Positions 15,734 through 57,191 of a stretch of DNA of 64,000 nucleotides are shown piece by piece. Within the stretch, counting starts at the first letter, position 1. Each line of letters begins with the position of its first letter. Source of the DNA: Chiloscyllium plagiosum. Lineage: Eukaryota. The DNA is taken from the NCBI RefSeq assembly GCF_004010195.1, contig NC_057757.1:8276759-8340758 (forward strand), in the 5' to 3' direction. The notes beneath the pieces were generated by a model, which had not been told where the DNA came from, did no database searches, and saw nothing but the letters and a program-made list of their open reading frames with translations. The position numbers and the translations under genes were made by a program.

Positions 15734-15800
15734 ATGCACCGACCAATTGATCAAGTGAAGCAAGTGTTCTACACCATCCTTGCTTTTGTTGGGCTTCCGG
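15734..15800 (+). CDS. GPR139-like: Coding exon 1 of intact GPR139-like class A GPCR (gene A): MHRPIDQVKQVFYTILAFVGLP + G (phase 1)
   Basis: ATG at 15734 (aaaATGc), 22 codons + 1 nt, then donor gtaacg at 15801. The G joins GT at 17182 to give ...VGLPGNLLAI, completing TM1 with its conserved Asn. Resembles GPR139 TM1 (VYYSLLLCLGLPANIL). Confidence 0.88.
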
Positions 15801-17181
15801 GTAACGCATTATGACAATTGATCCTGTTTTAATCTGCTGTTGATCTGCTCACTGGTTTCAACTTTTGAATAATAATGTCTCCAGCTCTCTGACTGATCAG
15901 TCTTATCCACACACTCGAACAGTGAAAGCAATTCACTGAACAGATTTCTCGGAACAATTCTCCACTGACGGAGACTACCAACGTTTAAACGCTCTGCATT
16001 TTCTGATCTTAGCGTTCTGTCATCTGTTCCGGTTTCATATGGTTTGAAGATATGCGGAGAGATCATGCAAGTTACTTCTGAGGAAGTGCGACTGGACCAG
16101 AAACATTAACTCTGCTTTCTCTCTCAAAGATGCTGCTAGTATTGCTGAACATTTTCTGTTTTCGTTATACAAATGAAGCCTGCTAACTTGAGAAATTTGA
16201 AGTTTAAGGGATGATCTGAGCGAAGTCCTATAATAAAAGGAAAAGACAGGAAAAGGTTAACCACTTCCATCGGTTGGAGATTTTAGGATGAGGGAGAAGA
16301 CTCTGGGAATGATATCCTGAGTACTCTGAAGAGATTTTAGGAAGCACTTCAACAGACAAAGGGTGGGAGAGGTTTGAAACTCTATTCCACAAATGGCAGT
16401 CGATACTTGATCAGTTTAAAGGAGATAGTACTATTTTTGGTAATCAAAGGAGTAGAAAGACATGTGCCCGATTTTGATTTGTAAAGTTTCATCTAATTAC
16501 CACCCCTTTTGGAAATTCTCTCCTCCTCATCACATCTGTTCAGGAGACTGAAATTTTGACAGATTGCCCTCCTGATCTCTCCACGTTAAGATGTTTGTCA
16601 TGTACAGATATATCGATTTACAGTGTAAATATCACAACAATCCTAACATTCTCAGATTGTCACTGAGGGAGCCCTGCATGCACTGCGATACTGCACTTGT
16701 GTAAGGCACTTGGAGTAGTCCTGTTTGACATCTTTTGCAGGCTCTGATGACCTGTTTCCTGGTCCTCCTGTGGCTTCAGTCAGGATGTGGTCCAATGCTA
16801 AATGGGGGAGTTTATTTTATCCACAGGCCCATGACTGAGTTGGGAGTGAGGTCTCTAACGGAGTTCTGTACCTGCCAGAGTTGGATCTGAGAATCTATTA
16901 CACTAATTCAGATAGTTTCCTTGGAAACAAACTAAATCACATACTTCTTTCTGCCCTACTTAGGAGGTGCTGTGTGCTCAGTCCCTGTCCAAACTCCATA
17001 ATATCTGGAGTGACTGGGCTGGAGGGTTATCTGAGATGGGTGTGAAAGTATTAAAATTCAAACTCATTCAACCCCAACCATTTCCACTCACACAGTAAAA
17101 CCATATTGTTGCACTCTGGAACAGGCAGAAGGAATTTCTGATCAGTAATTCATTGTTTCATTTTATATTTGTCTTCCACAG

Positions 17182-18194
17182 GTAATTTGTTGGCGATTGG
17201 TATACTTTCACAGGGAAAGTGCGGGGTATCCCCTTGCACTAGCCGCTACCTGGTGGTTATGGCAGCTGCCGATCTGATGGTCATTATTACTGATGTTATA
17301 GCGAGGATATTTCGCTATTATTATTACCCGCAGTCTTTCCTGAACATCACTCCTGTGTGCAGTTTTATTACCGTCCTGATACGTGCTGCCACGGACTGCT
17401 CTGTCTGGTTCACTGTCACTTTCTCCTTTGACCGATTCGTGACCATTTGTTGTCTTAAGTTGAGAACAAAATATTGTACTGAGAAAACTGCGACTATGGC
17501 TCTGGCAACAACCTGCACCCTGTTCTGTCTGAAAAACATCCCCTTCTATTTTCAATTTGATCATGTTAGAATAATCAACAATGTTCCATTCTACTGTAAA
17601 ACAAAGTTAACCTATTTTACTGAGACTTGGTGGGTGATATTAGATTGGCTTGATACAGTTTTAACCCCATTACTGCCATTCGCTTTAATTCTGTTGCTCA
17701 ATACTCTGACAGTCAGACACATTATAGTGACCAGTCGAGTCCGGAAGAGGCTGAAGGGTGAGAGCAAAGGAGACAATCAGAGAGACGCAGAGATGGAGAG
17801 CAGAAGAAGGTCTGTAATTTTGCTCTTCACCATCTCTGGGAGCTTCATTCTCCTGTGGCTGATATTTGTTATAGATTTCTTATATTATGTCATTCGAGGA
17901 ATCAATCCTGGCGATTACTCGCCTTTTCTATATCACTTCAGTGCAGTTGGTTACATGCTGCGGAACCTAAGCTGTTGCACAAACACATTTATTTATGCAG
18001 CAACATTGTCCCGGTTCAGAGCAAAGATCAGTATCACAGTAAAATACCTGGTTACACGAATTCCTTGCATTGTGAATAAAGAAAACTCCTCTGTGAAGCC
18101 CTTAGGGCGGGGGAGTCGTAATGCTTCCAGACCATTATTCACTCGTGGGATGTGGATGTCACTGACTGGGTCAGTGTTTAATACCCATCTCTAG
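17182..18194 (+). CDS. GPR139-like: Coding exon 2 of intact GPR139-like 7TM GPCR (gene A); spliced product 359 aa
   Basis: Polypyrimidine tract and cacag acceptor ending at 17181; open frame to TAG at 18192-18194. Seven hydrophobic segments with TM2 AAADL, TM3 SVWFTVTFSFDRF (DRY variant), TM5 TPLLPF, TM6 FILLWL and TM7 NTFIY (NPxxY variant). Called a paralog, not the GPR139 orthologue. Confidence 0.92.
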
Positions 18195-18650
18195 TTGACT
18201 CTTGAGAAGGTGGGGGTGAGCTGCTTTCTTGGAGTACTGTAGTCTATGTGCTAGAGGTAGATCTACAATATTGTTTGGGAGAGAATTCCAAGATTTTGAA
18301 CCAGAGACTCTGAAGAAACGCTGAGATTTTCCAAGTCAGGATAGTGAGTGACTTGGAAGAGAAGTTCGTGTTCCCATGTAAATGCTGCCCTTGTCCTTGT
18401 AGATGAACATGGATGTGGGTTTGGAAGGTGCTGTCTGAAGACATTTGGTGAATTTCTGCAGTGTATCTTGTAGATGGCACTCACTGCTGCTACTGCACGT
18501 CAGTTGGAGGGAGTGGATGTTTGTGAATCTGTTGCCAATCAAGTGGACTGTTTTCTCCTGGATTGTGTAAAGCTTTTTGACTGTTGTTGGTGCTGCTCTC
18601 ACCAAGTGGAGAGTATTCCATCACAGCCCTGACAGAGTCCTTCTCCCAGT
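18133..18650 (-). mobile_element. CR1/L2-group LINE 3' fragment overlapping the last codons of gene A
   Basis: Homologous to 47435-47975, about 27490-27870 and (inverted) 58930-59180; minus-strand peptide AAPTTVKKLYTIQEKTVHLI. Confidence 0.8.
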
Positions 18651-18969
18651 GTTGGAGTGAATTGATCTGGGAATCTGCAGATTCCCCAATGTAGCACAAT
18701 CTAACGGAGTTAATCTGGGGAAATGGATTTTCCTGCTTTGTAATTCCTATCTGTTTTGAACCCTTTGTAAGTCTGCATCAAAATCAAATCCTTCAGAGGA
18801 TTCTGATCGAATTCAATAGAGTAGATCGTCAGAAAATCTTTGAATCTTAAATACATTGTATCACTGCTCAGCAACAATTTAACAGCATAGTAATGTCACA
18901 AATAGCCACTAGGAGCTGTTCTGATGTGAGAAATTGTGGCAGAGTGTTATGTGGCATTATCAGAAACCA

Positions 18970-19040
18970 TGCACCAAACATTTATTTATGCAGCCATATG
19001 ATCTAGGTCAGAGCGAAGTTTAATAAAGCAGTAAATTCCT
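18970..19040 (+). pseudogene. Decayed fragment of GPCR TM7/helix-8 coding sequence
   Basis: tgcaccaaacatttatttatgcagccatatgatctaggtcagagcgaagtttaataaagcagtaaattcct aligns with 17976-18049 (tgcacaaacacatttatttatgcagcaacattgtcccggttcagagcaaagatcagtatcacagtaaaatacct). Confidence 0.65.
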
Positions 19041-19282
19041 ACTGACAGAAACTACGTGAAAACAAAGCTCTCTGGTGTCAGAAGTAATACAATGACACCC
19101 TCTGCTGGCCTCCACATGCGATAATGGAGGGTGAGAAATCTGAGTGATTCAATGAGAAGAGGGAGTGAAGGAGGGCAGCAGCTCACAGCATCATCCAAAC
19201 TAACAGCACAATCAACACAGACACATAAACACACATAGAGATACACAAGCACACACAAGGTTGGCGTGGACAGCGTTGCGAT

Positions 19283-19938
19283 TGAACTGAGGTCCCTCAG
19301 CGTGTAACGACTCATGTGGACAAATAGTGTGCTCCCTCTGCCATGTGGAAATGCTTTGTCTTTGAGCAATTGAATAGAAGTTTTCCCTACAATTATATCC
19401 AGATATTCCCGAATGAACTATTTCGTGAGGAGACAGAAACACACATATAGAGAGACATGTAGATACATACATGCAGATAGAAACATACAGATAAACATGG
19501 AGACACACTGACAACACAGACACACAAACACATACATGCAGTCACAAACACATACATGGACATAGACAGATACCCATACACATCCTAACACATCCAGGCA
19601 GATGTTGCTTAGGACAGCAAAAGTGAAGAATCTAATAGAGTTCCTTGTTCTGAAAACTTCACAAGAAATGATTAGACTTTTCGGAATGTGAGTTTACTGG
19701 AAATTCGTGCATAGTTTTAGCTGGAGAGCTGCATCTTTAATAAATTTGTGAAGGAAGCAAGCATAAATAGTCTGGGTAGGAAAACCCTCGGCTGCCTTTG
19801 AAATAATGAAAGCAATTTGAGTAAATGAACCAGAGTTGGTTATCCCTGAGTTTTGCAGATGTTCCCAAAATGGCAGCTCATGCTGGTGACTTGGGACTAT
19901 GTGCTGTCTTGTTATAGGATGATGAAGCAGGAACAGAG
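19283..19938 (+). repeat. Segmental duplicate (direct) of 1-642
   Basis: Colinear alignment with 1-642; the ORF track also gives near-identical spurious peptides (FPKWQLMLVTWDYVLSCYRMM). Confidence 0.93.
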
Positions 19939-20019
19939 TAATCCGCAGTGTACTTCTCTTAGAAACAAAAATGCAAGGTACTGCATTTTTGGAAATCAAA
20001 TCTTTGCAGGACTTAGACA

Positions 20020-20290
20020 CTTAACGGTAAGGTACTTGGGAGTGTTGCTGAACAGAGACCTTGGAGTACAGTTTCAGCACTCCTTGAAAGTGGCGCCACA
20101 GGAAGTGGCTGAGGCTAGGACAATTGCATCATTTAAAAGGCATCTGGATGGGTATATGAATAGGAAGGGTTCAGAGGGATATGGGCCGGGTGCTGGCAGA
20201 TGCAACTAGATGGGGTGGGATAACTAGTCGGCATGGACGTATTGGACCAAAGGGTCTGTTTCTTTGCTGTACATCTCTATGAGTCTCTGA
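20020..20290 (+). mobile_element. CR1 3' fragment
   Basis: FKRHLDGYMNRKG and the ctctatgagtct tail. Confidence 0.85.
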
Positions 20291-22529: not shown

Positions 22530-22860
22530 GGCACGAGGCGGCCGTTAACCGCCATTTCCCGTGCGCGGGGCCTGAGGGGGCGGGGCTTGGAGCTAAAATG
22601 GCGGCGGCCGTTAACCGCCATCTCCCGCGCGCGGGGCCTGAGGGGGCGGGGCCTGGAACTAAAATGGCGACGGCTGTTCACCGCTATCTCCCGCGCGCGG
22701 GGCCTGAGGGGGCGGGGCCTGCAGGTAAAATGGCGGCGGCCGTTAACCGCTATCTCCCGCGCGCGGGGCCTGGAGCTAAAACACTGGCGGGCGGTCCCAC
22801 CCAGAAAGGGGCAGAGTCGGAGGGAGAGCGGACTGTGTCAGCGAAGTGCCGTTCCTGAAG
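22530..22860. promoter_or_regulatory. CpG island / putative promoter built from about four 66-bp repeats, each with a GC box and YY1-type AAAATGGCG
   Basis: Only CpG-dense stretch in the window. AAAATGGCG at 22595, 22661 and 22727 (66-bp spacing); GGGGCGGGGC in each full unit. Confidence 0.65.
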
Positions 22861-22949: not shown

Positions 22950-24575
22950 TTATTATTCTTGTCCAACACTGAGGGAATAATTATTATTTCCCCGCCCACA
23001 AAGTCCAACACAAAGGGAATAATTATCATTTCTCCCTCCCTCACACAGTCCAACACAAGGGGAATAATTAATATTTCTCCCTCAATAACACTTAATATTT
23101 CTCCCTCCAACACAAAGGCAAGAGTCATTATCTCTCCCTTCCCCCACAGTCTAACGTAAGAGGAATAATTATTATTTCTCCCTCCCTCACAGTCCAACAC
23201 AAGGGGAATAATTATTATTTCACCCTCACACTGTCCCACACTCGGGGGTTAATTATTATTTCTCCATCCCCCACACAGTCCAACATACGGGGAATCATTA
23301 TTATTTCTCCCTCCCTCGCACTGTCCAACACAAGGGGAATAATTATTATTTCACTCTCTCCCACTATGTCCAAAACAAGGGGAATAATTATTCTTTCACC
23401 TACCCTCACTCTATCCAACACGAGGGGAATAATTATTATTTCTCCCTCCCCCACATTGTCCAACATAAGGGGAATAATTATTATTTCTCCTTCCCTCACG
23501 CTGTTCAACACAAGGGAAAGAATTAATATTTTTCCCTCAATAACACTTATTATTTCTCCCTCCAACTCAAAGGCAAGAGTTATTATCTCTCCCTCCCCCC
23601 ACAGTCCAACGTAAGAGGAATAATTATTATTTCTCCCTCCCTCACACTGTCCAACACAAGGGGAATAATTATAATTTCAACTACACTCACTCTATCCAGC
23701 ACGAGGGGATTAATTATTATTTCTGCTTCCCTCACACTGTCCAACACAAGGGCAATATTTATTATTTCCCCCTCCCTCACACTGTCCAACACAAAGGGAA
23801 TAATTATTATCTCTCCCTCCCTCACACTGTCCAACACAAGGGAAATAATTATTATTTCTGCCTCCCTCACACTGTTCAACACAAGGGGAATTACTATTAT
23901 TTCTCCCTCCCTCACACTGTCCAACCGAAGGGGAATAATTATTATTTCACCCTCACAATGTCCAACACAAAGGGAATAATTATTATTTCTTCCCAACACT
24001 GTCCAACACGAAGGCAATTATTATTTCTGGCTCCCTCACATTGTCCAACACATGGAGGATAATAATTGTTTCTGCCTCCCTCACACTGTCCAAGATAAGG
24101 GGAATAATTATTATTTTTTCCCAACTTGTCCAACACAAGGGCAAGAATTATTATTTCTCCCTCCAACAAACTGTCCAACACAAGGGGAATAATTATTATT
24201 TCTCCCTCCCTCTCACAGTTCAACACAAAGGGAATGATTGTTATTTCTCCCTCCCTCACACTGTCGAACACAAGGGGAATAATTATTATTTCTCCCTCCC
24301 TCACACTGTCTAAAACAAGGGGAATAATTATTATTTGTCCCTCCCTCACACTGTCTAACACAAGGGGAATAATTATTATTTTTCCCTCGCTCACTGTCCA
24401 ACACAAGGGGAATAATTATTATTTCTCCCTTGCTCACTGTCCAACACAAGGAGAATAATTATTATTTCTTCCCCATACTGTCCAACACAAGGGGAATAAT
24501 TATTATCTCTCCCTCCATCACACTGTCCAACACAAGGGGAATAATTTTTATCTCTCCCTCCCTCACACTGTCCAA
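22950..24575. repeat. 45-bp minisatellite (ctgtccaacacaaggggaataattattatttctccctccctcaca)
   Basis: Tens of tandem degenerate units; explains the 15-aa periodic ORFs. Confidence 0.95.
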
Positions 24576-28925: not shown

Positions 28926-28930
28926 TTTTT

Positions 28931-32495: not shown

Positions 32496-32852
32496 GTTGA
32501 GGACTTATTCATCGGAAAAGCCAGAGATTAACCCTTAAAATGTATGAACAAGAACAAGAGGAGGCCACAATCCTGCTGCACCATTCAATAAGGTCATGGC
32601 TGATCTGATTTTAAACTCAACTCTATATTCCCGCAAGTCCTGATCATCCTTCAACGTTGTCATCATCAGCAGTCCACTTTTGCCTTACAAAACACCTAAA
32701 AATTCTCTAAACACTGTCTTTTGAGGAAGGGAATTCTAAAGGGTCAAAACCTTCTGATAGAAAACATGTCACCTCATCTCTGTTTTAAATGGGCACCATT
32801 TTGTTTTTAATAGATAACTACTTTAAACATTAAACTATGCATCTTTTAGATG

Positions 32853-33352
32853 NNNNNNNNNNNNNNNNNNNNNNNNNNNNNNNNNNNNNNNNNNNNNNNN
32901 NNNNNNNNNNNNNNNNNNNNNNNNNNNNNNNNNNNNNNNNNNNNNNNNNNNNNNNNNNNNNNNNNNNNNNNNNNNNNNNNNNNNNNNNNNNNNNNNNNNN
33001 NNNNNNNNNNNNNNNNNNNNNNNNNNNNNNNNNNNNNNNNNNNNNNNNNNNNNNNNNNNNNNNNNNNNNNNNNNNNNNNNNNNNNNNNNNNNNNNNNNNN
33101 NNNNNNNNNNNNNNNNNNNNNNNNNNNNNNNNNNNNNNNNNNNNNNNNNNNNNNNNNNNNNNNNNNNNNNNNNNNNNNNNNNNNNNNNNNNNNNNNNNNN
33201 NNNNNNNNNNNNNNNNNNNNNNNNNNNNNNNNNNNNNNNNNNNNNNNNNNNNNNNNNNNNNNNNNNNNNNNNNNNNNNNNNNNNNNNNNNNNNNNNNNNN
33301 NNNNNNNNNNNNNNNNNNNNNNNNNNNNNNNNNNNNNNNNNNNNNNNNNNNN
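32853..33352. other. Assembly gap (500 N), abutting the 28-bp minisatellite
   Basis: Run of N. Confidence 1.
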
Positions 33353-36300
33353 GCACGTGCAATGACATACAGAGGGATCTGGGTGTGTAATGATATAAAG
33401 GGGAACCTGGGTGTACAACGATATGCAGAGGGATCTGAGTGTGCAATGATATACTGATGGATCTGGGTGTGCAAAGATTTCCAGAGGGATTTGGGTGTGC
33501 AATCATATACAGAGGGATCAGGGTGTACAATAAGATACAGAGGGATTTGGGTATGCAACCATATACAGAGGGATCTGGGTATGAAATGATATACAGAGGG
33601 ATCTGGGTGTACAATGATATGCAGAGGTATCTGGGGCTACAATGATATACAAAGGGATCTGGGTGTACAATGATATACAGAGGGAGCAGGTTGTGAAATG
33701 ATATACAGAGTGATAGCAATGTACAATGATATACAGAGGGATCTGGGTGCGCAATGATATACAGAGGGATCTGGGTGTAAAATGATATGCAGAGGGATAT
33801 GGGTGAGCAATGATATACAGAGGGATCTGGGTGTACAATGATATATAGAGGGATATGGGTGTACAATGATATGCAGAGGGATATGATTGGGCAATGATAT
33901 ACAGAGGGATCTGGGCGTGCAATGATATGCAGTGGGATCTGTGTGTATAATGATACACAGAGGTATCTGGGTGTATAATGACATACAGATGGATCTGGGT
34001 GCACAATGACATGCAGTCTGATCTGGGTGTACAATGATATGCAGAGTGATCTGGGTGTGCAATGATATACAGACGGATGTGGGTGTACAATGACATACAG
34101 AGGGATCTGCGTGCACAATGATATACAGAGGGATCTGGGTGTAAAATGATATACAGTGGGATGTGGATCTGCAATGATATACAGAGAGATGCGGGTGTAC
34201 AATGATTTGAGAGGGATCTGGGTGTACAATGAATTACAGGGGGATCTGGGTGTAGAACGATTTTCAGAGGGGTCTGGGTGCACAATGATAAACAGAGAGA
34301 TCTGGATGTACAATGATATACAGAGGGATATGGGTGTACAATGATATCCAGAGGGATCTGGGCGTGCAATGATATGCAGAGGGATCTGGGTGTGCTATGA
34401 TATACAGAGGGATCTGGGTGTGCAATGATATGCAGAGGGATCTGGTGTGCAATGATATACATAGGGATCTGGGTTGCAATGATATACACAGGGATCTGGG
34501 TGTACAATGATATACAGAGGGATCTGTGAGCACAATATTATACAATGGGATCTAGGTGTACAATGATATACAGAAGGAACTGGGTGAACAATGATATACA
34601 GAGGGACCTGAGTGTGCAAATATATACAGAGGGATCTGGGTGTGCAATAATATACAGAGGGACCTGAGTGTGCAAATATATACAGAGGGATCTGGGTGTG
34701 CAATGATATACAGAGGGATCTGGCAGTACAATGAAATACAGCGGGATCTGTGTGTGAAATGATATACAGAGGGATCTGGATGTGCAATGATATACAGAGG
34801 GATCTGGCTGTGCAATGATATACGCAGTGATCTGAGTGTAACATCAAATGCCGAGGGATCTTGGTGTACAATTATATACAGAGGGATCCGGGTTACAATG
34901 ATATACAGAGGGATCTGGGTGGACACTTAGATTACATTACAGTGTGGAAACAGGCTCTTCGGCCCAACAAGTCCACACCGACCCGCCACCCACCCATACC
35001 CCAACATTTACCCCTTACCTAACACTACGGGCAATTTAGCATGGCCAATTCATCTGACCTGCAGGTCTTTGGACTGTGGGAGGAAACCGGAGCACCCGGA
35101 GGAAACCCACGCAGACACGGGGAGAATGTGCAAACTCCACACAGTCAGTCGCCTGAGGCGGGGATTGAACACGGGTCTCTCGCGCTGTGAGGCAGCAGTG
35201 CTAACCATTGTGCCACCGTGCCGCCCACAATGATATGCAGAGGGATCTGGGCGTACAATGATATACAGAGGGACCTGGTTGTGCAATGATATACAGAGGG
35301 ACCTGGGTGTACAATGATATACAGAGGGATCTGGGTGTGCAATGATATACATAGCGATCTGTGTGTACAATCAGATGCAGAGGGATATGGATGTACAATG
35401 ATATACAGAGGGATCTGGGTGGGCAATGATATACCGAGAGATCTGGGTGTATAATGATTTGCAGAGGGATCTGGGTGTGCAATGATATACAGAGGGATCT
35501 GGGCGTACAATGATTTGCAGAGGGGTCTGGGTGTGCAATGATATGCAGAGGGATCTGAGTGTACGATGGTATACATATAGATCTGGGTGTGCAATGATAT
35601 GTAGAGAGACCTGGGTGCACAATGATATACAGGTGGACCTGGTCGTGCAATGATATACACAGGGATCTGGGTGCACAATAATATACTGAGGGATCTGGGT
35701 GTACAATGATATACAGAGGGATCTGGGTGTACAATGTTATACAGCGGGATCTGGATGTACAACGAAATACAGAGGGATCTGTGTGCACAATGATATACAG
35801 AGGGATCTGCGTGTACAATGATATGCAGAGGGATCTGGATGGACAGTGATATACAGAAGGAACTGGGTGGACAATGACATACAGAGGGATCTGGGTCTAC
35901 AACGAAATTCAGAGGGATGTGGGTTACAATGATATACAGAGGGATCTGGGTGTACAATGATATGCAGAGGGATCTGGACGTACAATGATATACAGAGGGA
36001 TCTGGACGTACAATGATATACAGAGGGATCTGGTTGTGCAATGATGTACAGAGGGATCTGGGTGTACAATCATATCCAGAGAGATCTTGGTGTACAATGA
36101 TATATAGAGGGATCAGGGTGTACAATGATATGCAGAGGGATCTGGGTGTACAACAAAATACAGAGGGATCTGGGTTACAATGATATACAGAGGGATCTGG
36201 GTGTACAATGATATACAGAGGGATCTGGGTGGACAATGATATGCAGAAAGCTCTGGTTGTGCAATGATGTCCAGAGGAATCTGGGTGTACAATGATTTGC

Positions 36301-36620
36301 AGAGGGATCTGGGTGTGCAATGATATACAGAGGGATCTGGGTGTGCAATGATATACAGAGGGATCTGGGTGTACAACGAAATACAGAGGGATCTGGGTTA
36401 CAATGATATACAGAGGGATATGGGTGTGCAATGATTTGCAGAGGGATCTGGGTGTGCAATGATATACAGAGGGATCTGGGTGTGCAATGATATACAGAGG
36501 GATCTGGGTGTACAACGAAATACAGAGGGATCTGGGTTACAATGATATACAGAGGGATCTGAGTGTACAATGATATACAGAGGTATCTGGGTGGACAATG
36601 ATATACAGAAGGAACTGGGT
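33353..36620. repeat. 28-bp minisatellite (tgtacaatgatatacagagggatctggg), interrupted by a SINE
   Basis: About 100 tandem units; three units give the 28-aa ORF period YTQIPLYIIVHPDPSVYHCTPRSLCISL. Confidence 0.97.
34926..35226 (-). mobile_element. Young HE1-like SINE inserted in the 28-bp minisatellite
   Basis: Full head gggcggcacggtggcacaatggttagcactgctgcctcacagc, B box and tail; it splits one repeat unit. Confidence 0.95.
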
Positions 36621-37424
36621 GAGAAATCAGGGGAAGTCAGGGGTTGGTTGAGAAGGAGGTGCTAGATCGCATTAAAGAATTTACTTGCTTGAGTAAGATT
36701 TACTCATGTATGCCAGGAAGAGTAGGCAAAGAAATTAAGATTATAAGAAATACACAGGTGCAAGTCAACTGACTAGAGAAACATAAGGACGAGTTTTGCC
36801 AGAAATAGTTGATAATATGTGTAGTTCATGGGGAGAAGAACAGTGTTCCATTCCATAAAGTGAGGTTGGAGAGTTCAGTGAAAATTCATGAAGTGGTGGT
36901 AGGAGTTATTCTCAGTTTCAGAAATACAGTTTATCTTTGGTACTGACATAGCTGGGTCACAGGTGACAGTGATGCCTACTGTGGTTGAAGGGCCAGTGGA
37001 ATATCAGGCAACTGGGGTGTTACAGGAAGTATATCCTGGGATTTTTTCTGACTGTGTTGTAGCAAGATCACAAAGCCCCAGGGAAACAGGAGGATGATCA
37101 TTGCACCTAGCTGAGGGAGGGGAAAGTGAGATTGTAGCCCTGCGATTGAGGTTACATTGTCACCCAGCCAGGGGGTGTTTGTGTCCGTGTTTGTTTCTGT
37201 TTCCCAGGGCTGGGATTTCTAAATCAGAACACAACACAATAGGAAGGAGCTGTTTGTAAGGATTGGGTCTTTAAAATTATACCCCTGAATGGAATTGTGT
37301 TAATTAGTAAGAACCTTCTTATGTCGGACATCTGACAATTGGGACACCTTACATCACAGTCTGTGTACTGCACCAGCTGGAAGATTACAGGATGAAATTT
37401 AATTCATGAAATGTTCATCTTATG

Positions 37425-38331
37425 TCAAAATTTAAAAATCTTCATGATGAAATTTACGGAAAATTTAATGCCATTCTTTAACTCATTTCTGAACTTACCC
37501 TGGGCACCTGCATAAATAAATCGGCTTATACAGGAACTCAGCATCTGGAACATATATCCACTTTATTCCAGGTTGAAATTGGATTCAATGCAATTGGAAC
37601 CTGAGAAATAACTCACATTCACAATTCAGACATAGAGAAATGTTAACACATACAACAGCCATCACAGAATGAAACTGCCTGAGATACAGAAGAGCAGGAT
37701 GATGACTTTCTCTGGTTCTTTACCTCCATGTAATTCTGATTTTCTGCCTGATAACCGATATGGAGTCTTTTACAAGTTTAAATGACCTTTAGAATTTGTC
37801 TGACAGTCACAGCATTGAGCAGTAAGATCAAAACGAATGGGAGACAACGGGTTGAAATGTGATTAATCCAATCAAATGCAGCCCATGCAGCTGAGGTATA
37901 AAATATAGACTTAATTTTGCAATACCATAGTGTGTGACCAACTGTATACAAAGTTCATATATGAAACATCAGAATGTATTTTTGACACAGCTCATGCCAC
38001 AAACTGCCCCTGTAACCACAGCTGCTCTTTCTCTGTGCAATATCTTGGCTTCAATTTTCAGTAAAAAAACGACTATAAACCAATCAATAGTGAACACAGC
38101 AGTTGCCCAGACAGAACAATCCCTGCTTTCGCCATTAGGACAAAATTGACATCGCAGACTGAATGACTCACAGGATGCTGAATGGGAAATAAATTCCATC
38201 AATACATTTCAATATTACAGCTGTAATAATGACCATCAGGTCTGTCACCGCCATCGATACGAGGTAGTAGGTGATACATTGGGAGAGACTGCACATTCCT
38301 CTGGATAGGATCACGATCACTGTCAAGTTAG
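37425..38331 (-). pseudogene. GPR139-like GPCR pseudogene B, exon 2
   Basis: Acceptor ttgaag, then (A)NLTVIVILSRGMCSLSQCITYYLVSMAVTDLMVII, with a stop at 38168-38170 and frameshifts. Later blocks: DCSVWATAVFTIDWF and TM7/H8 FQMLSSCISRFIYAGAQGKFRNELKNGIKF...* ending at 37425. Confidence 0.9.
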
Positions 38332-40959: not shown

Positions 40960-41029
40960 CTGGTACCCCAATAGCTGCAAGGATGGGATACTAAATTGCA
41001 AACAGCAGACCTTTTGGTACACCATGCAT
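40960..41029 (-). pseudogene. GPR139-like GPCR pseudogene B, exon 1 (MHGVPKGLLFAI*YPILAAIGVP + G)
   Basis: ATG at 41029-41027, in-frame TAG at 40993-40991, phase-1 end and weak donor gtgctg. Splices to exon 2 as IGVPANLTV. Confidence 0.82.
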
Positions 41030-47975: not shown

Positions 47976-50900
47976 CATCGTTGTTAAATGGAACCTTACT
48001 GTAACATTACAATAGTGAATAGTGTGGGTTATGTCTTGATTTTTGTTTTATTATTGTGGTCTGTGTTTTGATTACATTTTAAAAATATAAACCATAAGTA
48101 TTAAGTTAGCTTGGAGCAGTATTTTTGTAGAGCAATAAGACTGTGCTATTTTCTGGGTCTGTAGATTGTGAAGGAGCAAAGATGGCCTTTGGTACAGTGA
48201 TGTACTCTTCCTGTCCAATGTGAGAGATTAGGGAGCATTTCCATGTTCTTGATTATTATGTCTGCAGGAAGTGCCTTTGGTTGTGAATACTATCAGATCG
48301 CATGAATTGGTTGGAGCGGCAGTTAGAGTCTCCTTGGCTATTCCCATGTCAAACCACCGTGCTATTTTGGAAAATATAGAAGGTGATGGTCTCTCAGTGG
48401 AATTTAGCACGAACAGCCAAGTTTCAGGTACCGAGAATGGCTCCACCGTAATGAGGGGTACATCGGGTTCCAAGTGATGGATTCTGACAGGGGACTGTCT
48501 AGTCAGAGGCACAAACAGATGTTACTGCAGTTGTCAGAGAACAACCAGAATAGTGTGTTGCCTCCCTGGTGCCAAGATCAAGGATATCTCAGACAGGGTG
48601 CAGAATGTTCTCAAACGGGAGAGGGACCAGCAGGAGGTCGCTGTACACATTGGAACCAATGACATAGGAAGGGAAAAGGATGAGATTCTGAAGGGAGAAC
48701 ATAGGAAGTTAGGCAAGAATTTAAAAAGGAGGTTCTCGAGGGTAGCAACATCTAGATGACTCCCGGTGCTACCAGCTTGTGAGGGGAGGAACAGGAGGGT
48801 ACACCAGATGAGTACATGGCTGAGGAGCTGGTGCAGTGGAGAAGGGTTCACATTGTTGAATCACTGGGATAGAAGTAACCTGTACAAGAGGATGGATTGC
48901 ACCTGAATTGGAAGGGGACAAATATACTGGCAGGGAGATTTGCTGGAGCTGCTTGGGAGGATTTAAACTAGTAAGTTTTGGAGGGGTGGATCCAGGGAAA
49001 TAGTGAGGAACTAGATTGATGTGAGACTGGTATAGTTGTGAAAAGAAGAGAATCAAGCAGTTAGGGCAGCCAGGAACAAAGCAGAGAACAAGGTAGGACT
49101 GATAAATTAAACTGCATTTACTTCAAAGCAAGAGGCCTAACAGGGAAGGCAGATGAAGCCAGGATATGGTTAGGAACATGGGATTCGAATATCATAGCAG
49201 TTACAGAAACATGGCCCAGGGATGGACAGGACTGGCAGCTTAATGTAAAAGCCGGGGGTGGGGGGGGGGTGGGGGGAGGAAGAGAGGAGGGGAAGTTTTT
49301 CTTAAGGGTTAGTATTAGTGCTGTACTTAGGGAGGATATTCCTGGGAATACATCCAGGGATGGTATTCGGGTGGAACTGAGAAATAAGAAAGGGATGGTC
49401 ACCTTATTGGGATTGAATTGTACACCCCCTAACAGGCAGTGGAAAATTGAGAAACAAATTGAAAGGAAATTTCAGTGATCTGTAAAAATAATAGGATGGA
49501 TATAGTAGGGTATTTTAACGTTCCAAACATAGACTGGGATTGCCATAGGGCGAAGGGTTTCGATGGAGACGAATTTATTAAGTGCGCACAAGTAAATGCT
49601 ATGTTTCAGTATGTGGACGTAACTACTAGGGAAGGTGCAAAACTTGACCTACTGTTAGGAAATAAAGCAGGGCAGGTGACTGAGGTGTCAGTGGGTAAGC
49701 ACTTTGGGGCCAGTGACCATTATTCTATTAGATTTAAGAGGGTGATGGAAAAGGATAGGCCAGATCTAAGCATTGAAGTTCTAAATTGGAGGAAGGCTAA
49801 GTTTGACAGTATTAGGCAAGAACTTTGAAAAGCTGATTGGGGGCAGATGTTTGCAGGTAAAGGGACGGCTGGAAAATGGGAAGCCTTTAGAAATGAGAAA
49901 ACGAGAGTCCAGAGACAATATATTCTTGTTAGGGTGAAAGGAAAGGCTGGGAGGTATAGGGGATTCTGGATGACTAGAGAAATTAAGGTTTTGGTTAAGA
50001 AAAAGAAGGAAACATATGTCAGGTATAGACAGGATAGATTGAGAGAATGCTTAGCAGAGTATAAGGTTGTACGAGTACACTTAAGAGGGAAATCAGCAGA
50101 GCAATAGGGGACATGTGATAACTATGGCAAATAGGGTTAAGGAGAAACCAAAATACATTAAGGACAAAAGGGTAACTAGGGAGAGAATAGGGCTCCTCAA
50201 AGTTCAGCAAGGCGGCCTTTGTGTGGAGCCGCAGGATGGTAGCGAGATATTACATGAGTATTCTGCATCAGTATTTCCTGTGGAGAAGGACTTGGAAGAA
50301 TTGGAATGTGAAGAAATAGATGGTGACAACTAGTAAAATGTCCATATTACAGAGGAGGTGGTTGTGGATGTTTTGAAATGTGTAGAAGTGGCAAAATCCT
50401 CAGGACCTGATCAGGTGTTCCCTAGAACTCTGTGGAAATCTAGGGAAGTTATTGCTGGGCCTCTTGCTGAGATATTTTTATCAACAATAGTCACAGGTGA
50501 GGTGCCAGAGACTGGAGGTTGGCTAATGTGATACCCCTATTTAAGAAAATGCTAAGGAAAAGCCAGGGAAGTATAGACAGGTGAGCCTGACATTGGTGGT
50601 GGGCAACTTGTAGGAGGAAATCCTGAAGGACAGGATTTACATGCATTTGGAAAGGCAAGGACTGATTCAGAATAGTCAGCATGGCTTTGTGCATGGAAAA
50701 TCATGTGTCACAAACTTGATTGAGTTTTTTGAAACAATAACAAAGAGGATTGATGAGGTCAGAGAGATAGACCTGATTTATATGGACTTCAGTATGGCAT
50801 TAGACAAGGTTCCTCATTGGAGACTGGTTGGCAAGGTTAGATCTCATGGAATACGGGGAAACGTAGCCACTGCCTTGAAGGCAGAGGACAGAGGGTGGTG

Positions 50901-51800
50901 GTGGAAGGTTGCTTTTCAGACAGCAGGCCTGTGACCACTGTTGTGCCCAAGGATTGATACTGAGTCCACTACTTTTCATCGTTTATATAAATGATTTGGA
51001 TGTGAACAGAGAGGTATAGTTAGTAATTTTGCAGATGGCACCAAAATTGGAGGTGTAGTGGATAGCGAAGAAGGTTACCTCAGAGTACAATGGGATCTTG
51101 ATCAGATGGGCCAATGGGCTGAGGAGTGGCAGATGGAGTTTAATTTAGATAAATGCGAGGTGCATTTTGGAAAAGCAAATCTTAGCAGGACTTATACACT
51201 TTATGGTAGGGTCCTAGGGAGTGTTACTGAACAAAGAGACCTTGGAGTGCATGTTCATAGTTTCTTGAAAGTAGAAGCGTAGGTGGACAGAATAGATATT
51301 TGGTATGCTTTTTTTTATTGGTCAGAGCATTAAGTACAGGAGTTGGGAGGTCATGTTGCAGCTGTACAGGACATTAGTTAAGCCAATTTGGAGTACTGCA
51401 TGCAATTCTGGCCTCCTTCCTATTGGAAGAATGTTGTGAAACTTGCAAGGGTTGAGAAAAGATTTACAAGGATGTTGTCGGGGTTGGAGTGTTTGAGCTA
51501 TAGGGAGAGACTGAATAGACTGAGACTGTTTTCCCTGGAAGGCATAGGTTTGGGCTGAGATGAAAAGATTTACAATGGACTTAAGGGGCAATGTTTTCAT
51601 GCAAACAGTGGTGTGTGTATAGAATGAGCTGCCAGAGGAAGTGGTGGAGGCTAGTACAATGACAACATTTAAAAGGCTTCTGGATGGGCATATGAATGGG
51701 AAGGTTTTAGAGGGATCTCAGCCAAGTGCTGGCAAATGGGACTACATTAGGTTAGAATACATGGTTAGCAAGGACGATCGGATCAAAGCGTCTGTTTCCC
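47975..51800 (+). mobile_element. Near full-length, inactivated CR1 LINE (5' UTR, ORF1 with esterase domain, ORF2 APE-RT)
   Basis: ORF1 from about 48182 with VCCLPGAKIKD...VHIGTND (SGNH-type esterase). ORF2 endonuclease (IIAVTETW, GYFNVPNIDW, SDHYSI) and RT (SQHGF, IYMDFS, WQMEFN); many stops and frameshifts. Confidence 0.92.
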
Positions 51801-52496
51801 TGATTCTAAGTAAGGGCAGGACTTTTACACCTAATTGTCGGGTCCTGAGGAATTTTGCTGAACAAAAACGCCTTGAAGTACAGGTTCATTGTTCTTTAAT
51901 AGTAGAGTCACAAGGAGACAAGGAATTGAAGAAGGCATTTGGTCTGCTTGCTTGTATTTGTCAGTGCATTGAATGGAGGAGTTAGGAGGTTATCTTGCAG
52001 CTGTGCAGGACATTGGTTAGGCCACTTTTGGAATCCTGTGTTCAGTTCTGGTCTCCCAGATACAAAAAAAAGGAACGTGAAAGGCTCAGAAAAGGCTGAG
52101 ACATAAGGTCAGATGAAAACAACCTATTTAAAGTAGTGAATTTTAAACAGGATCTTTAAAAGGAGAAGGAGCTGGGTAATTGGAACGACTTGGAGAAGGA
52201 TTCCAGACATTTAGACAGCTCAGTGGCACATGATTGTCCTCAATTGTCAGGCTTACTGTTGTTTTTCAGTTGCCTTTTCATTTGATTTAATTCTATGAAA
52301 TCTGTAATTCATTTTACCATCACACCAACTGGTAGCATTTACATCACAGCAGAATATCGAACACTTTCATAGATATTTTAACAAGCAAGTCTCACGCCAG
52401 TCCAATAAAACAAAAAAAATCAATGGATGGCCTTGGAACATTTTGAATAGACGAGTGAGAATTTAAATTCAAGTATTTGGAGGACAGTATGCTTGC

Positions 52497-53107: not shown

Positions 53108-53463
53108 CTGTGAAGGTCACTGTGGTCAGTGGCTCATCAGGGAATGGATTTTTTTAGGAAAGCAAGCCAAGGGGCAGACAAAATTAAAACAAAGAAAATG
53201 TACAGAGTTTATAATCTGGTTTCAGGCCAATATGGTGCTGGAATACAAGGGTCTCGTGGTAACAGTGGAATGAATGACTGTTTCACCAATTATGAGCTGA
53301 GGCAGGGATGGTTTTAGCTGTTGTTTTACAGATGGAAACAATAATTCTTGGTGATGATGAAGGTATATTTTTTAATTGATCCCAGGCTCCATTATGAAGC
53401 CACAAGCAGACAGGATTCATCCAGAATCAATTCCTGCTGAGCTCCATGGAGTCAGTGAGAGCC

Positions 53464-53563
53464 TTCTTCATTCCTGAAGAAGGGCTCATGCCCAAAACAT
53501 CGATTCTCTTGCTCTTTGGATGCTGCCTGACCTGCTGCGCTTTTCCAGCAACACATTTTCAGC
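53464..53563 (+). mobile_element. 100-bp Penelope-type terminal fragment with perfect 12-bp TSD
   Basis: tcagtgagagcc at 53452-53463 and 53564-53575. Confidence 0.85.
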
Positions 53564-54291
53564 TCAGTGAGAGCCACTAAACAATTACAAAACACTGACG
53601 ATATCTGGCTTATCTGCCACATCCAACCACATTCCCAAGTTCTGGATCTCATCTGCCACTGAACCCTCTGATTGGGCCTTGGATTCCCCACCAACACTGC
53701 AGCTGATTCGAGGAAAGAAATGAATAAAGAAAAGGAGTGATATCAGCATCAGGTCAGGGTGAACTGAATGGGACCAGACTAAGTATTGCTGAAAATACAT
53801 TTGTAATTAAAGGAGACGGGTTCTTTTACAATGTATTATCCAATCTTTTTATTAGGAAAATTCTTATATTTCTTTTCATTTGCCCAGATGTGTGGATCAG
53901 AGAATTCCGTGAGGGAGAGTGGACAGGAGACTGAAATTGCTTGTCCCATTCTGGCCTGCAGTGAACAATGATACTTTCCTTCAGGCCATTGTTTTTTTTT
54001 TCTATTGAGTTCACTCACTGAGAACTGATTTCTTGGGATGATTTTTTTTCTCTGAGGCATATCTTTTTGTTTTGCTTTAGTTGTTCAGATTTCTCCTATC
54101 TGTTGCTCATTGCTGACAGCACTTGGCGATACTTTGTTCCTGTCATCTCTCCTTTTGCTCCTCAGGTGGAGTGCTCCCTTGCCCATTAGAAACGGAGTGT
54201 TCCCGTGTTGCTGCTCCTCCTTCTCCTTTCAGTCCATTCCTCTCGTGGACTCCTCGTTGCATTTTCTGCTGCTTCTAATGTTGGCTCTCAG

Positions 54292-55163
54292 TTACATGGA
54301 TTTATTGATCAATTGAATTATTTTTATAAGTGGACATTTCATGGCATACATTAACTGGTGGCTGAAAAGTTTCTGCGTCACCACAAAAATCAATGCATTT
54401 GTGCAGCAACTTAAGTCTCGCAACATATATGCGAATTGTTCAAAGAGGTAATAACCAGCGGAATCCAAGGCATGACCAGCATTAAAGGAAAGTGAAATAT
54501 ACTCCAACCAGAGAAGTATGAACTTGGCAGATAGGAAGAGTAAAATCACAGAATTCTATCTCAGGATCATTCTGTATGTTTTTTTGACCTCTCAGTCCTT
54601 TATGCATCTTGATGGCTTCAAAGATATGCCTGATAATCAGCATGTTGATGAAGAGAACAAAAGTAAATGGGAGAAATGGTGTTAAAAATGTTCAAAATAT
54701 TTAAAACTTGTCCACTGAGGCCCATTATAGTATCTGGACGTGGTATGACACTGTCATGGAACACTGTTGATGATCTTTCCAGGTTTAAATTGAAAGTAGT
54801 TGGGAATGTTCTTTATAGAAAATAAAATACTGATAGTTGCTAGAACCCTCATTGCAGTTTTCTCTGTGCAATATTTCGTTTTAATCTGATGAAAACAAAT
54901 GGCGACAAATTGATCAAAAGAAAAAACAGCAGTGAACCAGACAGAACAATCAACGGCCAAGCAGCTCAGGACACAGAGAACACTACAAACAGGAGTGATG
55001 TCCAGAAAACACAGAGGATAATAATAGTATGGAAATCGCCGAAGTATGATATAAAAAACAATGAACAGTAGATCAGATGTTGTCATGGACATCACATAGC
55101 GAGTTCTGCATGTTGAAAGACCACACTTGCCCCAAACTAAGATCAGAATCACCAACAGACTGA
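54292..55163 (-). pseudogene. GPR139-like GPCR pseudogene C, exon 2
   Basis: Acceptor ctccctcacag, then SLLVILILVWGKCGLSTCRTRY...DITPVCS...DCSVWFTAVFSFDQF...TKYCTEKTA. Premature TGA at 54754-54756, frameshifts in TM5/ICL3, TM6-TM7 FILLWL...YMLRDLSCCTNALIF, stop at 54292. Confidence 0.92.
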
Positions 55164-57123
55164 CTGTGAGGGAGAAAATGAAAAACAGACTTGAAGTTAC
55201 TAATCAAACATTCTCTGAGCCTGACCCCAGACTGTAAGTAATGGCAAAAGATAATTGTTGTTTCACGGTTAAAGAATGCAGTTTAAAGAATCTGAATCAT
55301 GGCAGCAAACTTAGTAAATTTTGCACTTTTAAAAGATGCAGGGCAGAACATGTACAACAGATTGCTCACAGAAAGACAGTCATATACTCAAGGTTTTTTT
55401 GGAGGGGGTTGGCAGTGGTTGATATCACCTGATTTATAGGTTACTCAGACTGGCTGGAGTTTCCTATAACATCACAGCATCGACAAAAAAACCCATCCGG
55501 GATCAGTAAAACAATGAATGGGAGTCAACGAACACAGACACTGATTGCAAGATTCCTGTATTCAGCTTTGGAGTCTCTGCATCTCAGATTGCCTCCAGAA
55601 TTGTAGATCCATACTATGTAAATGACAGGGCGATGAATCATTCCACAGTGTCCAGGATTGGATGTCCCCCAAAATATGGATGAAAAATGATCGGGCACTA
55701 AGTCCCTCCCTCATGTACAGGACTAAGCATGCTGACAATCCGATCAATGAAAGTATTCAGCAGGGAACCCCACCACGACGCCCTCGATTTGATACCAACC
55801 ACAATCAGAGGAACTTGAACATTTGACGAGTTCCCCTGCTTGTCCAAGACTGTACAGCACAGCCTCCACCCAAATAAAATCCGAAGCAGTGCAGCATTAG
55901 GTTTTGCAACTTTCTGGTTTAGAAATTAGACAGTTTATCTGGAATGAAGCAAAGCTTTCTGCCTGGTGTTCAGGCTCACACTCCAAATTTCCTCTCTTCG
56001 GTCCTCTCCTTGTGAACGGAAAACCCCCTCCCAGATTCAGAACAATCTGGAACTAGAAACCCCATAGCTTAACTAGCATTGACAATGGTGATCACCAGAA
56101 TTGTACCACAACCTGGTATCAGAGACTGATAATAACATATCGAAGTTGATAGCCAAAAACAAAATAACAATCCCAAATGAATGCACATGGAAGGAACTTC
56201 ACATAGACTATTATTGTTCAGAGAATGGCAACAAAGGGCGATATGGGAAATGCTTGACAAACTAGTTTGATCCTCTATTGGAGAGCAATTGCCATAGCAG
56301 TCCAGATCTCAGTGTTTGTCTAATTAAACACCGCTCCACAGTACTGTGTATCTTTTTACAAAGGGCAAAACTCACATGTCTATTTGACAATCAAATAATT
56401 CAATACACATGATAACTGGAACCCTGTGCTTAACACTCCTTCCAGTTATCTGATCTCACAAACTTTATGACCCCTACACATCCACTGACTGATGAAAGTA
56501 CACAAGTTGGTCAAAGCCATCCGTGCTGACCCCTCCCTTATCACCCCATAATGACCTGCTGAACCCACCTATTGCCCACATTATATCCGTGTTCCCATTT
56601 GGAGCAAGCTGCCTGAGAAAGACCCACCAATAAAATATCTTTACGTCCAGTAATGGGAACACCAGATGTAACTAAGAGGTGGTTGTTACAAAACCCATCT
56701 GACTGAGAAAAGTTTTGGCCTATCACAGGGAAAGTTGTCTTGCTAAACACTTTCTAGGACAATTTAGGGCCAGTACTTAGCCAAACCTCATCAATACAGC
56801 TTCAGTGCAAGCATATTATAGAAAAACAGAACCCAATACAAAGGAACAGACAATGCTGCACATGACTGAGAGTCTCCTAATTGAAAAATTATTCACTTTA
56901 AACTCAGTGAGTGAGGACACTATTGTATGGCATTGATATTTGCCTTGCTAAATGGAAATAATTATCAGTCATAGGTGGAAACTGGTATGAATGAATTCAG
57001 AGATTTATACAACTTAAGTTGTGGATGGCACGGGATGTGGACTTGTTGGGCTGAAGGGCCTGTTTCCACACTGTAATCTAATTGTACAAATGTAATCTAA
57101 CCTAAAGTTGTTACGAGACTTAC

Positions 57124-57191
57124 AAAGAACATCAACAGCAGTAAGGATGGTGTCATATACTTTTATTACTCTTTCCCTTGGAAAAAAGCAT
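57124..57191 (-). pseudogene. GPR139-like GPCR pseudogene C, exon 1 (+1 frameshift in a T6 run; restored MLFPRERVIKVYDTILTAVDVL)
   Basis: aaaATGc start and perfect GTAAGT donor at 57123-57118. Removing one T gives 22 codons + 1 nt, the same length and phase as gene A exon 1, aligning VIKVYDTILTAVDVL with VKQVFYTILAFVGLP. Confidence 0.78.

What the first reader, a model, noticed from the sequence alone, without database searches (positions are those of the whole stretch)
15734..57191. Birth-and-death cluster of short-N-terminus GPR139-like GPCRs: a candidate uncharacterised shark receptor repertoire
Seen: within about 42 kb there is one intact gene, two complete pseudogenes and a TM7 relic. 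All three genes share a tiny exon 1 (22-23 codons, aaATGc start) and a phase-1 intron in TM1 just before the conserved TM1 Asn position. All three keep DCSVW, and A and C also share TKYCTEKTA and LSCCTN, yet the loops are strongly diverged. Known: mammalian GPR139 and GPR142 are each single-copy receptors activated by aromatic amino acids (L-Trp/L-Phe), and from memory GPR139 has its intron at the same TM1 position. Sharks are reported to have very few classical odorant receptors. Inference: tandem copies, mixed orientation, a high pseudogene fraction and an ectodomain of only about 8 residues resemble chemosensory or immune receptor families. This could be a lineage-expanded amino-acid or peptide sensing repertoire with no assigned function.
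Basis: partly seen in the sequence, partly recalled or inferred. Interest (0 to 1): 0.85.

Follow-up and report, generated by a model that had tools for sequence, protein, structure and literature searches.

The report
Hidden giant shark receptor repertoire
The three receptor genes and one fragment in this window belong to a family of well over 1,700 copies in this shark genome that is not GPR139 itself, varies most where it would bind a chemical, and likely forms an undescribed set of chemical sensors, possibly for smell, in animals thought to have only a few dozen smell receptors.

Summary
Observation confirmed: one intact two-exon class A GPCR gene, two pseudogenes and a TM7 relic. The family is far larger than the window: one 20-base motif matches 1,743 places in this genome (control 1), all 118 such loci examined are members, and 56 of 90 sampled keep an open main exon; estimate roughly 500-1,400 intact genes. 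It is not GPR139: true GPR139 and GPR142 lie elsewhere as single matches, the tree rejects that grouping (AU p=7e-6), and 5 of 6 GPR139 pocket residues differ. Its sister is a single-lineage orphan of amphibians and sturgeon (100/99); chimaera, skate and ray members exist. Signalling motifs are conserved, pocket positions hypervariable, with positive selection in gene A's subfamily (LRT 94). Promoters carry an O/E (Olf/EBF)-like site at a fixed distance before a TATA box, replicated in two hold-out sets, as in mammalian odorant-receptor promoters. Expression and ligands are untested (inconclusive). Databases label these genes 'probable GPR139'; ten literature searches found no description. Best reading: an independently evolved chemosensory, likely olfactory, repertoire.

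The parts
15623..15633 (+). O/E (Olf/EBF)-like palindrome of gene A promoter, 22 nt before the TATA box
   Evidence: 1 mismatch to the published V$NOLF core (PMC3247239); same position in other subfamilies; function inferred
15645..15651 (+). TATA-like box of gene A promoter
   Evidence: transcription start not mapped
15734..15800 (+). Gene A exon 1 (22 codons + 1 nt; short N-terminus and first half of TM1)
   Evidence: same exon in RefSeq relatives and 9 of 10 intact neighbours
17182..18194 (+). Gene A exon 2 (TM1 Asn to C-terminus), intact; ancestral stop replaced by GAA at 18081-18083, giving a 37-residue tail
   Evidence: (7tm_1 78.3 bits)
18970..19037 (+). TM7/helix-8 relic of a family gene
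   Evidence: nhmmer E 1.5e-6, profile positions 787-856 of 860
37425..38331 (-). Pseudogene B exon 2
   Evidence: 85% nt identity to an intact paralogue, 6 indels, 7 stops
40960..41029 (-). Pseudogene B exon 1 (23 codons + 1 nt, in-frame stop); O/E-like and TATA sites upstream are decayed
54292..55163 (-). Pseudogene C exon 2
   Evidence: 80% nt identity to an intact paralogue, 3 deletions, 2 stops
57124..57191 (-). Pseudogene C exon 1 (68 nt, frameshifted)
57298..57309 (-). O/E-like site of pseudogene C promoter; the spacer to the TATA box is shortened
   Evidence: compared with intact relatives L104/L107

Best explanation
These genes are members of a cartilaginous-fish family of two-exon class A GPCRs with well over 1,700 copies in this genome, descended from an orphan relative of GPR139/GPR142 rather than from GPR139, and the family likely serves as a chemosensory repertoire, most likely expressed in olfactory sensory neurons. 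Shown: size, clustering on many chromosomes, birth-and-death turnover, ancestry, conserved G-protein-side motifs with a hypervariable pocket, positive selection at pocket and loop sites in some subfamilies, and a positionally fixed O/E-like site plus TATA box. Inferred: each receptor binds a different water-borne ligand (polar small molecules or short peptides, from the peptide-receptor-like fold, the ECL2 hairpin and the conserved acidic/polar residues at 3.37 and about 5.43) in a pocket reached without an ectodomain; EBF-family factors would drive transcription; all members would signal through one shared G-protein pathway.
For: 1,743 exact motif matches vs 1 control; 30 of 30 and 90 of 90 matched loci are family members, 118 distinct; 56 of 90 have an open exon 2, 28 broken, 6 gapped; 24 loci in 464 kb around the window, 10 intact; 121 distinct intact exon-2 sequences in hand, median 47% identity. 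Family 95/82 is sister to amphibian+sturgeon genes 100/99; family+GPR139 rejected, AU p=7.4e-6. Mean entropy 2.18 bits at 34 pocket positions vs 1.03 at 77 intracellular-side positions, p=2.6e-7. Gene A subfamily (31 genes): M0 omega 0.47; M2a vs M1a LRT 94.4, omega 3.8; M8 vs M8a 82.6; 15 null simulations gave at most 4.4; 8 of 10 selected sites are extracellular or pocket-facing. O/E-like site within 2 mismatches: 10 of 11 discovery promoters, 8 of 10 and 6 of 11 hold-out promoters, each 0 of 4,000-5,000 random-window draws as good. [quoted passage not shown] Sharks have large olfactory organs but only about 10-50 known olfactory receptor genes (PMC10116579).
Against: No expression evidence: laying reads gave only about 10 low-identity reads on the most conserved part of exon 2 in one single-cell run and no exon 1-exon 2 joint; contigs of two other runs carry the intron. 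The homeodomain site that accompanies O/E in OR promoters appeared in 6 of 11 discovery promoters but 0 of 10 first hold-out promoters. EBF also acts in B cells and other neurons (recalled), so the site is not nose-specific, and no unrelated shark promoters were tested as a control. Positive selection was strong in 2, weak in 1 and absent in 2 of 5 subfamilies; one strong set is mostly loop sites open to alignment error, and gene conversion was not tested. The first 30 motif loci, from the largest chromosomes, were only 7 of 30 intact. The receptors also share chromosomes with zinc-finger arrays, so some spread may be passive.
Confidence: 0.55

Rival explanations
1. An immune sensing repertoire: the receptors would be expressed on B cells or other leukocytes and detect microbial or host peptides or metabolites, like formyl-peptide or MRGPR receptors.
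For: Positive selection at extracellular sites also fits host-pathogen pressure; EBF1 is a B-cell factor and a forkhead-like motif lies upstream in 5 of 11, 5 of 10 and 3 of 11 promoters (factor roles recalled); peptide-receptor-like fold.
Against: Innate-immune GPCR families of this size are not known to me (recalled); the forkhead-like signal is weak and was first seen by eye; no immune expression data.
Confidence: 0.18
2. A chemosensory repertoire outside the nose (taste buds, solitary chemosensory cells of skin or gill, gut, or reproductive tract and sperm).
For: All protein-level evidence fits any chemosensory site; the single-lineage amphibian/sturgeon sister suggests an aquatic role (inference).
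Against: The O/E-like site plus TATA box is the mammalian OR promoter pattern.
Confidence: 0.18
3. Mostly passive amplification: a small functional core carried along by segmental duplication at chromosome ends and on small repeat-rich chromosomes, with most open frames being young copies not yet decayed.
For: Half of gap-free loci are broken in contiguous stretches (15 of 27); clustering at chromosome ends and beside zinc-finger arrays; two sampled copies have identical exon 2.
Against: Intact copies are old and diverse (median 47% identity; 61 clusters at 80% identity among 121); omega 0.28-0.47 overall with about 60-70% of sites near 0.15; promoter elements are kept across subfamilies whose other promoter sequence no longer aligns.
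Confidence: 0.06
4. Amplified GPR139 copies sensing L-Trp/L-Phe.
For: GPR139 is the best PDB sequence match (E 7.9e-7 single, 1.6e-28 profile); same intron position; RefSeq names.
Against: True GPR139 and GPR142 exist separately; AU test rejects the grouping; only W6.48 of six pocket residues is kept.
Confidence: 0.03

Closest known systems
RefSeq/UniRef models named 'probable G-protein coupled receptor 139' (also 'neuropeptides capa receptor-like', 'vasopressin V2 receptor-like') in sharks, skates, rays and chimaera
   Same: These are the same family: 1,946 protein clusters at E<=0.001, top 120 all sharks, up to 81% identical; chimaera, skate and ray members.
   Different: The names are automatic best-hit labels and wrong as orthology; no paper found treats them as a family.
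Orphan gene of amphibians and sturgeon (e.g. XP_069092602.1, P0243; P0285-P0304)
   Same: Sister clade, 100/99; shares ICL2 and ICL3 motifs and the TM3-ECL2 cysteines.
   Different: One conserved lineage, 66-74% identical across frogs, salamanders and caecilian; Asn at 2.50 and a different pocket; no closer one-to-one shark orthologue found (best 37%, all top hits family members).
Orphan group beside GPR139/GPR142 named GPR210A/B in coelacanth, gar and fishes (PMC6504862)
   Same: Coelacanth P0240, its single shark orthologue L171 (64%) and teleost relatives are the next branches out.
   Different: Low copy number; whether my sequences are the Ensembl entries named GPR210 could not be checked; that paper has no shark data.
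GPR139 and GPR142
   Same: Class A fold, two exons with the intron at the same phase-1 site before N1.50, non-canonical N7.49xxxY motif.
   Different: Separate single matches in this genome; pocket residues E3.32, F3.33, H5.43, R6.51, N7.38 not kept; GPR139/142 lack C3.25 and the ECL2 hairpin stretch.
Vertebrate chemoreceptor repertoires (OR, TAAR, V1R, V2R; also FPR, MRGPR)
   Same: Works like them in evolution: hundreds of clustered genes, birth and death, short N-terminus, variable pocket, O/E-like site and TATA box in the promoter.
   Different: Different ancestry (Pfam gives only 7tm_1; nearest structures are GPR139 and peptide receptors); coding intron in TM1; homeodomain site not replicated; expression unshown.

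Membership tests
Class A (rhodopsin-like) GPCR | 7tm_1 profile above cut-off | tested here: met
   78.3 bits vs 30.5
Class A (rhodopsin-like) GPCR | Seven TM helices plus helix 8 | tested here: met
   AlphaFold2 model of the 80%-identical relative P0004, pLDDT 86.5; Foldseek TM about 0.7-0.8 to NTSR1, GPR139, opioid receptors
Class A (rhodopsin-like) GPCR | Activation motifs N1.50, D2.50, DR 3.49-3.50, W6.48, Y7.53 and TM3-ECL2 cysteines | tested here: met
   95, 100, 98/99, 94, 100, 99/98% of 121 intact copies
GPR139 orthologue | Groups with GPR139 in a tree | tested here: not met
   (AU p=7.4e-6); true orthologue at L089
GPR139 orthologue | L-Trp/L-Phe pocket E3.32, F3.33, H5.43, W6.48, R6.51, N7.38 (PMC7318219) | tested here: not met
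   Gene A has I, R, D, W, F, Y; only W6.48 is conserved family-wide (H at 5.43 in 26%)
GPR139 orthologue | Two exons with intron in TM1 | tested here: met
   Acceptors of shark GPR139 and GPR142 lie at the same phase-1 site; their exon 1 was not fetched
GPR139 orthologue | Habenula/CNS expression and activation by aromatic amino acids | not testable with these tools
   no tissue-labelled data or assays
OR/TAAR/V1R/V2R families | Sequence membership | tested here: not met
   Only 7tm_1 at E<=0.001; nearest solved structures are GPR139 and peptide receptors
Chemosensory receptor repertoire (functional class) | Large clustered family with birth-and-death turnover | tested here: met
Chemosensory receptor repertoire (functional class) | Diversified ligand pocket under positive selection | tested here: met
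   entropy test; strong in 2, weak in 1, absent in 2 of 5 subfamilies
Chemosensory receptor repertoire (functional class) | O/E site and TATA box in proximal promoter | tested here: met
   24 of 32 promoters within 2 mismatches at a fixed position, two hold-out sets; binding not shown
Chemosensory receptor repertoire (functional class) | Homeodomain site in proximal promoter | tested here: not met
   6 of 11 discovery, 0 of 10 first hold-out, 1 of 11 second hold-out in a narrower window
Chemosensory receptor repertoire (functional class) | Expression in sensory cells | tested here: inconclusive
   tissues of runs are not disclosed
Chemosensory receptor repertoire (functional class) | One receptor per neuron; activation by external chemicals | not testable with these tools
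   needs single-cell data and assays

The most novel reading that the evidence does not exclude
Sharks, rays and chimaeras evolved their own main olfactory receptor family, hundreds to over a thousand genes strong, from a GPR139/142-related orphan, under O/E-type promoters convergent with or shared with mammalian odorant receptors. It would be a new vertebrate olfactory receptor class and would overturn the view that sharks smell with only 10-50 receptors.
Probability: 0.5. Interest if true: 0.96.

Novelty: new variant of a known kind. Interest (0 to 1): 0.86.

Why it matters
Published work says cartilaginous fishes have few GPCRs (PMC8455134) and only about 10-50 olfactory receptor genes despite large noses (PMC10116579). 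A receptor family on the scale of a mammalian odorant repertoire, hidden under a wrong database name, contradicts the first statement already and makes the second directly testable with existing shark RNA data. If olfactory, it is another independent origin of a vertebrate smell-receptor class; if immune or reproductive, it is an unprecedented GPCR repertoire of that kind. The conserved amphibian and sturgeon sister gene offers a tractable entry (Xenopus, axolotl) to the ancestral ligand.

Tried and rejected
Relic search by tblastn and protein HMM missed it; the DNA profile found it. A direct two-motif capture-recapture count was not obtained, so the total copy number rests on small contiguous samples; a second motif alone gave 287 matches and is subfamily-biased. 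First exon-1 finder had a faulty training filter and was redone. Sequencing runs: no RNA holder listed; the lay gave no spliced joint, repeat-dominated depth, and unspliced contigs in X1 and X3, so nothing is claimed on expression. Homeodomain promoter site: rejected after hold-out. Forkhead-like motif: weak. One 200-kb stretch on C44 held no family locus. Fold search does not single out GPR139 (rank 8), so it was not used for ancestry. Supplement of PMC11979771 (tissue expression tables) could not be read and may bear on expression and novelty; supplements of the other genome papers were not opened; the white shark genome paper was not held. Codon-model fits used my own implementation, fixed trees with one scale factor and one starting point, so the two null subfamilies may be under-fitted.
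Full report
1. Observation. Six-frame translation found DCSVW at 17394 (+), 38121 (-) and 54951 (-), and TKYCTEKTA and LSCCTN in genes A and C only. Gene A splices from a 67-nt exon 1 (15734-15800) over a GT-AG phase-1 intron to exon 2 (17182-18194) and gives 359 open codons. B (41029-40960; 38331-37425) and C (57191-57124; 55163-54292) are full-length but broken: B has 6 one-base indels and 7 stops, C 3 deletions and 2 stops in exon 2 against their closest intact paralogues, and both have a damaged exon 1. The TM7 relic is at 18970-19037 (E 1.5e-6). Gene A's tail is derived: 6 of 6 paralogues checked stop after residue 322, where A reads on for 37 codons into repeat-rich DNA. Gene A passes Pfam 7tm_1 and nothing else. 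Its closest named relatives are carpet-shark proteins at 75-81% identity.

2. Size of the family. A protein search of the own genome gave 8,253 first-look candidates; the 120 scored were all at least 55% identical. One exact degenerate 20-mer for DCSVWFT matches 855+888 = 1,743 places against 1 for the reversed control. All 30 first-listed loci and all 90 loci of a synonymous sub-pattern that I fetched (90 of its 160 matches, all on chromosome-scale scaffolds; two loci shared between the sets) are family members. Of the 90, 56 have an open exon 2, 28 are broken and 6 hit assembly gaps; of the first 30, from the largest chromosomes, only 7 are clearly intact. Contiguous sequence: 24 loci in 464 kb around the window (10 intact, 12 broken, 2 gapped), and 3, 0 and 3 loci in three 200-kb stretches on C8, C44 and C37 (the C8 and C37 stretches were chosen near known hits). 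The motif catches 16 of 27 gap-free loci and 9 of 12 intact ones, and only 7 of 29 loci found with distant queries, so the total is probably about 2,900 loci or more. Exon 1 is whole for 9 of 10 intact neighbours and 14 of the 16 found among 39 sampled loci searched within 3.3 kb. Combining these fractions gives roughly 500-1,400 intact genes (my estimate); 121 distinct intact exon-2 sequences are in hand, median identity 47%. Caveat: 69 of the 160 sub-pattern matches lie on unplaced contigs. Among the 30 best hits, several unplaced, no copy exceeds 97.9% nt identity to another held copy, which argues against simple allelic duplicates, but two sampled loci share an identical exon 2. Copies lie on many chromosomes, dense at chromosome ends, along C8 and on the small chromosomes C37-C50.

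3. Ancestry. Human GPR139 is the best solved-structure match, which explains the database names. A TM3 pattern finds exactly two places, encoding recognisable GPR139 and GPR142; both have a splice acceptor at the same phase-1 site before N1.50, so the intron is ancestral to the wider group. Distant hits led to an orphan gene in amphibians and sturgeon, 66-74% identical among amphibians, whose next relatives are shark family members at 32-33%; the shark genome has no closer orthologue of it, but has one clear orthologue of a coelacanth orphan (64%). In a 34-row IQ-TREE analysis (chosen from the 85 rows), the 18 cartilaginous-fish sequences form a clade (95/82), sister to amphibian+sturgeon (100/99), inside a group with the coelacanth-type orphans (99/98), with GPR139+GPR142 outside. 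Forcing the family with GPR139 is rejected (AU p=7.4e-6). A chimaera protein (XP_007902368.1) nests inside the family in the FastTree tree, with modest support, and skate and stingray members exist, so the family dates at least to the common ancestor of living cartilaginous fishes. PMC6504862 names orphans beside GPR139/142 as GPR210A/B but has no sharks (passages); I could not match accessions.

4. Protein anatomy. A model of the 80%-identical whale-shark protein P0004 has seven helices, helix 8, an ECL2 hairpin and TM1 starting within the first few residues (pLDDT 86.5); fold matches are peptide receptors and GPR139. Across 121 intact copies, activation and G-protein-side motifs are nearly invariant while pocket positions are hypervariable: 2.18 vs 1.03 bits, p=2.6e-7 (generic numbering assigned by me from anchor residues, pocket list recalled). 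Of the six GPR139 agonist-site residues (PMC7318219, passages) only W6.48 is kept. D3.37 (93%) and D/H/N at about 5.43 (90%) are conserved polar residues deep in the pocket, which suggests a shared polar anchor (inference).

5. Selection. In gene A's subfamily (31 genes) M0 omega is 0.47; M2a beats M1a (LRT 94.4; 61% of sites at 0.15, 4% at 3.8) and M8 beats M8a (82.6); 15 null simulations gave at most 4.4. Selected sites in gene A numbering: 29, 33, 64 (2.61), 73 (ECL1), 89 (3.32), 93 (3.36), 151 and 162 (ECL2), 251 (6.51), 277 (7.36). Four other subfamilies gave M2a/M1a LRT 225, 4.7, 0 and 0, with omega 0.28-0.34. The models are my own code; loop alignment and gene conversion are caveats.

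6. Promoter. Prompted by an earlier scan note on a TATA box, I aligned 25 promoters and saw by eye a palindrome 21-23 nt before the TATA-like box. It fits the published O/E matrix core TCCCYNGRGA (PMC3247239, passages). With the test fixed beforehand (notes 90, 93): first hold-out, 10 usable of 20 fetched loci, 8 within 2 mismatches, mean 2.1 vs 4.1 for random upstream windows and 4.0 for shuffles, 0 of 5,000 each; these promoters show no local similarity to the discovery set. Second hold-out, 11 usable of 20, 6 within 2 mismatches, mean 2.9 vs 4.2, 0 of 4,000, no shuffle control; two resemble first hold-out promoters and in three my TATA pick is probably misplaced. Pseudogene B has lost both elements. 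The homeodomain site did not replicate and a forkhead-like motif is weak. [quoted passage not shown] All promoters descend from one ancestor, so this is one conserved element, not many independent matches; EBF's roles outside the nose (recalled) keep it from being decisive.

7. Expression. Not established (see Tried and rejected). The catshark olfactory top-50 list held no GPCR at all (PMC11979771, passages), which is uninformative for sparsely expressed receptors.

8. Mechanism and odds. Shown: a large, old, purifying-selected, pocket-diversified class A family with a shared core promoter. Inferred: external chemical sensing with one common signalling output. I put olfactory neurons at 0.55, other chemosensory sites 0.18, immune cells 0.18, passive spread 0.06, GPR139-like amino-acid sensing 0.03.

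9. Literature. Ten full-text searches (on the family; on promoter motifs; listings and abstract starts seen) found no paper on this expansion. Term searches inside main texts found no mention in PMC11979771, PMC10620051, PMC8455134, PMC7677710, bioRxiv 10.1101/2025.02.19.638963 or, for sharks, PMC12208981 (passages only). PMC8455134 states a paucity of GPCRs in cartilaginous fishes; PMC10116579 (abstract and passages) gives 6-13 OR, 3-5 TAAR, 2-4 V1R and 8-43 V2R genes. PMC3247230 (passages) added nothing. Subscription papers and supplements were not covered. Earlier AI notes of this scan reached the same family independently of this window; they are leads, not support.

10. Verdict. The finding is real and understated. 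The genes are catalogued under a wrong name; the repertoire, its true sister gene, its selection pattern and its O/E-like promoter appear undescribed. New variant of a known kind; interest 0.86.

Noticed in passing
window 18081-18194: Gene A lost the family stop codon and reads 37 extra codons into a high-copy repeat; its function may be altered.
   Followed up: partly
window 22537-22772, 22960-24575, 33360-36621: GC-rich 66-bp repeat, 45-bp array (36 copies) and 28-bp array (117 copies) between the genes; they give long spurious open frames.
   Followed up: no
window about 643-1142 and about 32852-33351: Two 500-base assembly gaps.
   Followed up: no
window 62110-62592 and 49065-51982: Decayed LINE fragments, reverse-transcriptase- and endonuclease-like (CR1-type by recalled motifs).
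   Followed up: no
L089 (G000 C21:58.73 Mb): True GPR139 lies about 0.5 Mb from an array of family genes near the end of C21; chance or relic linkage not tested.
   Followed up: no
L089, L090: Shark GPR139 and GPR142 lack the TM3 cysteine and ECL2 hairpin stretch that the family, its amphibian sister and the coelacanth-type orphan keep.
   Followed up: no
P0243, P0285-P0304: Conserved orphan GPCR of amphibians and sturgeon, mislabelled GPR139, with Asn at 2.50; no amniote or teleost hit.
   Followed up: partly
L241-L260 (G000 C44:5.0-5.2 Mb): Dense array of C2H2 zinc-finger open frames on a chromosome that also carries many receptor copies.
   Followed up: no
L106 and L107 (G000 C46): Two loci 35 kb apart with identical exon 2, one containing a gap: very recent duplication or assembly duplication.
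   Followed up: no
promoters in L281-L320: Forkhead-like TGTTTRY about 60-95 nt before the TATA box in 13 of 32 promoters vs 0-2 per set in control windows.
   Followed up: partly
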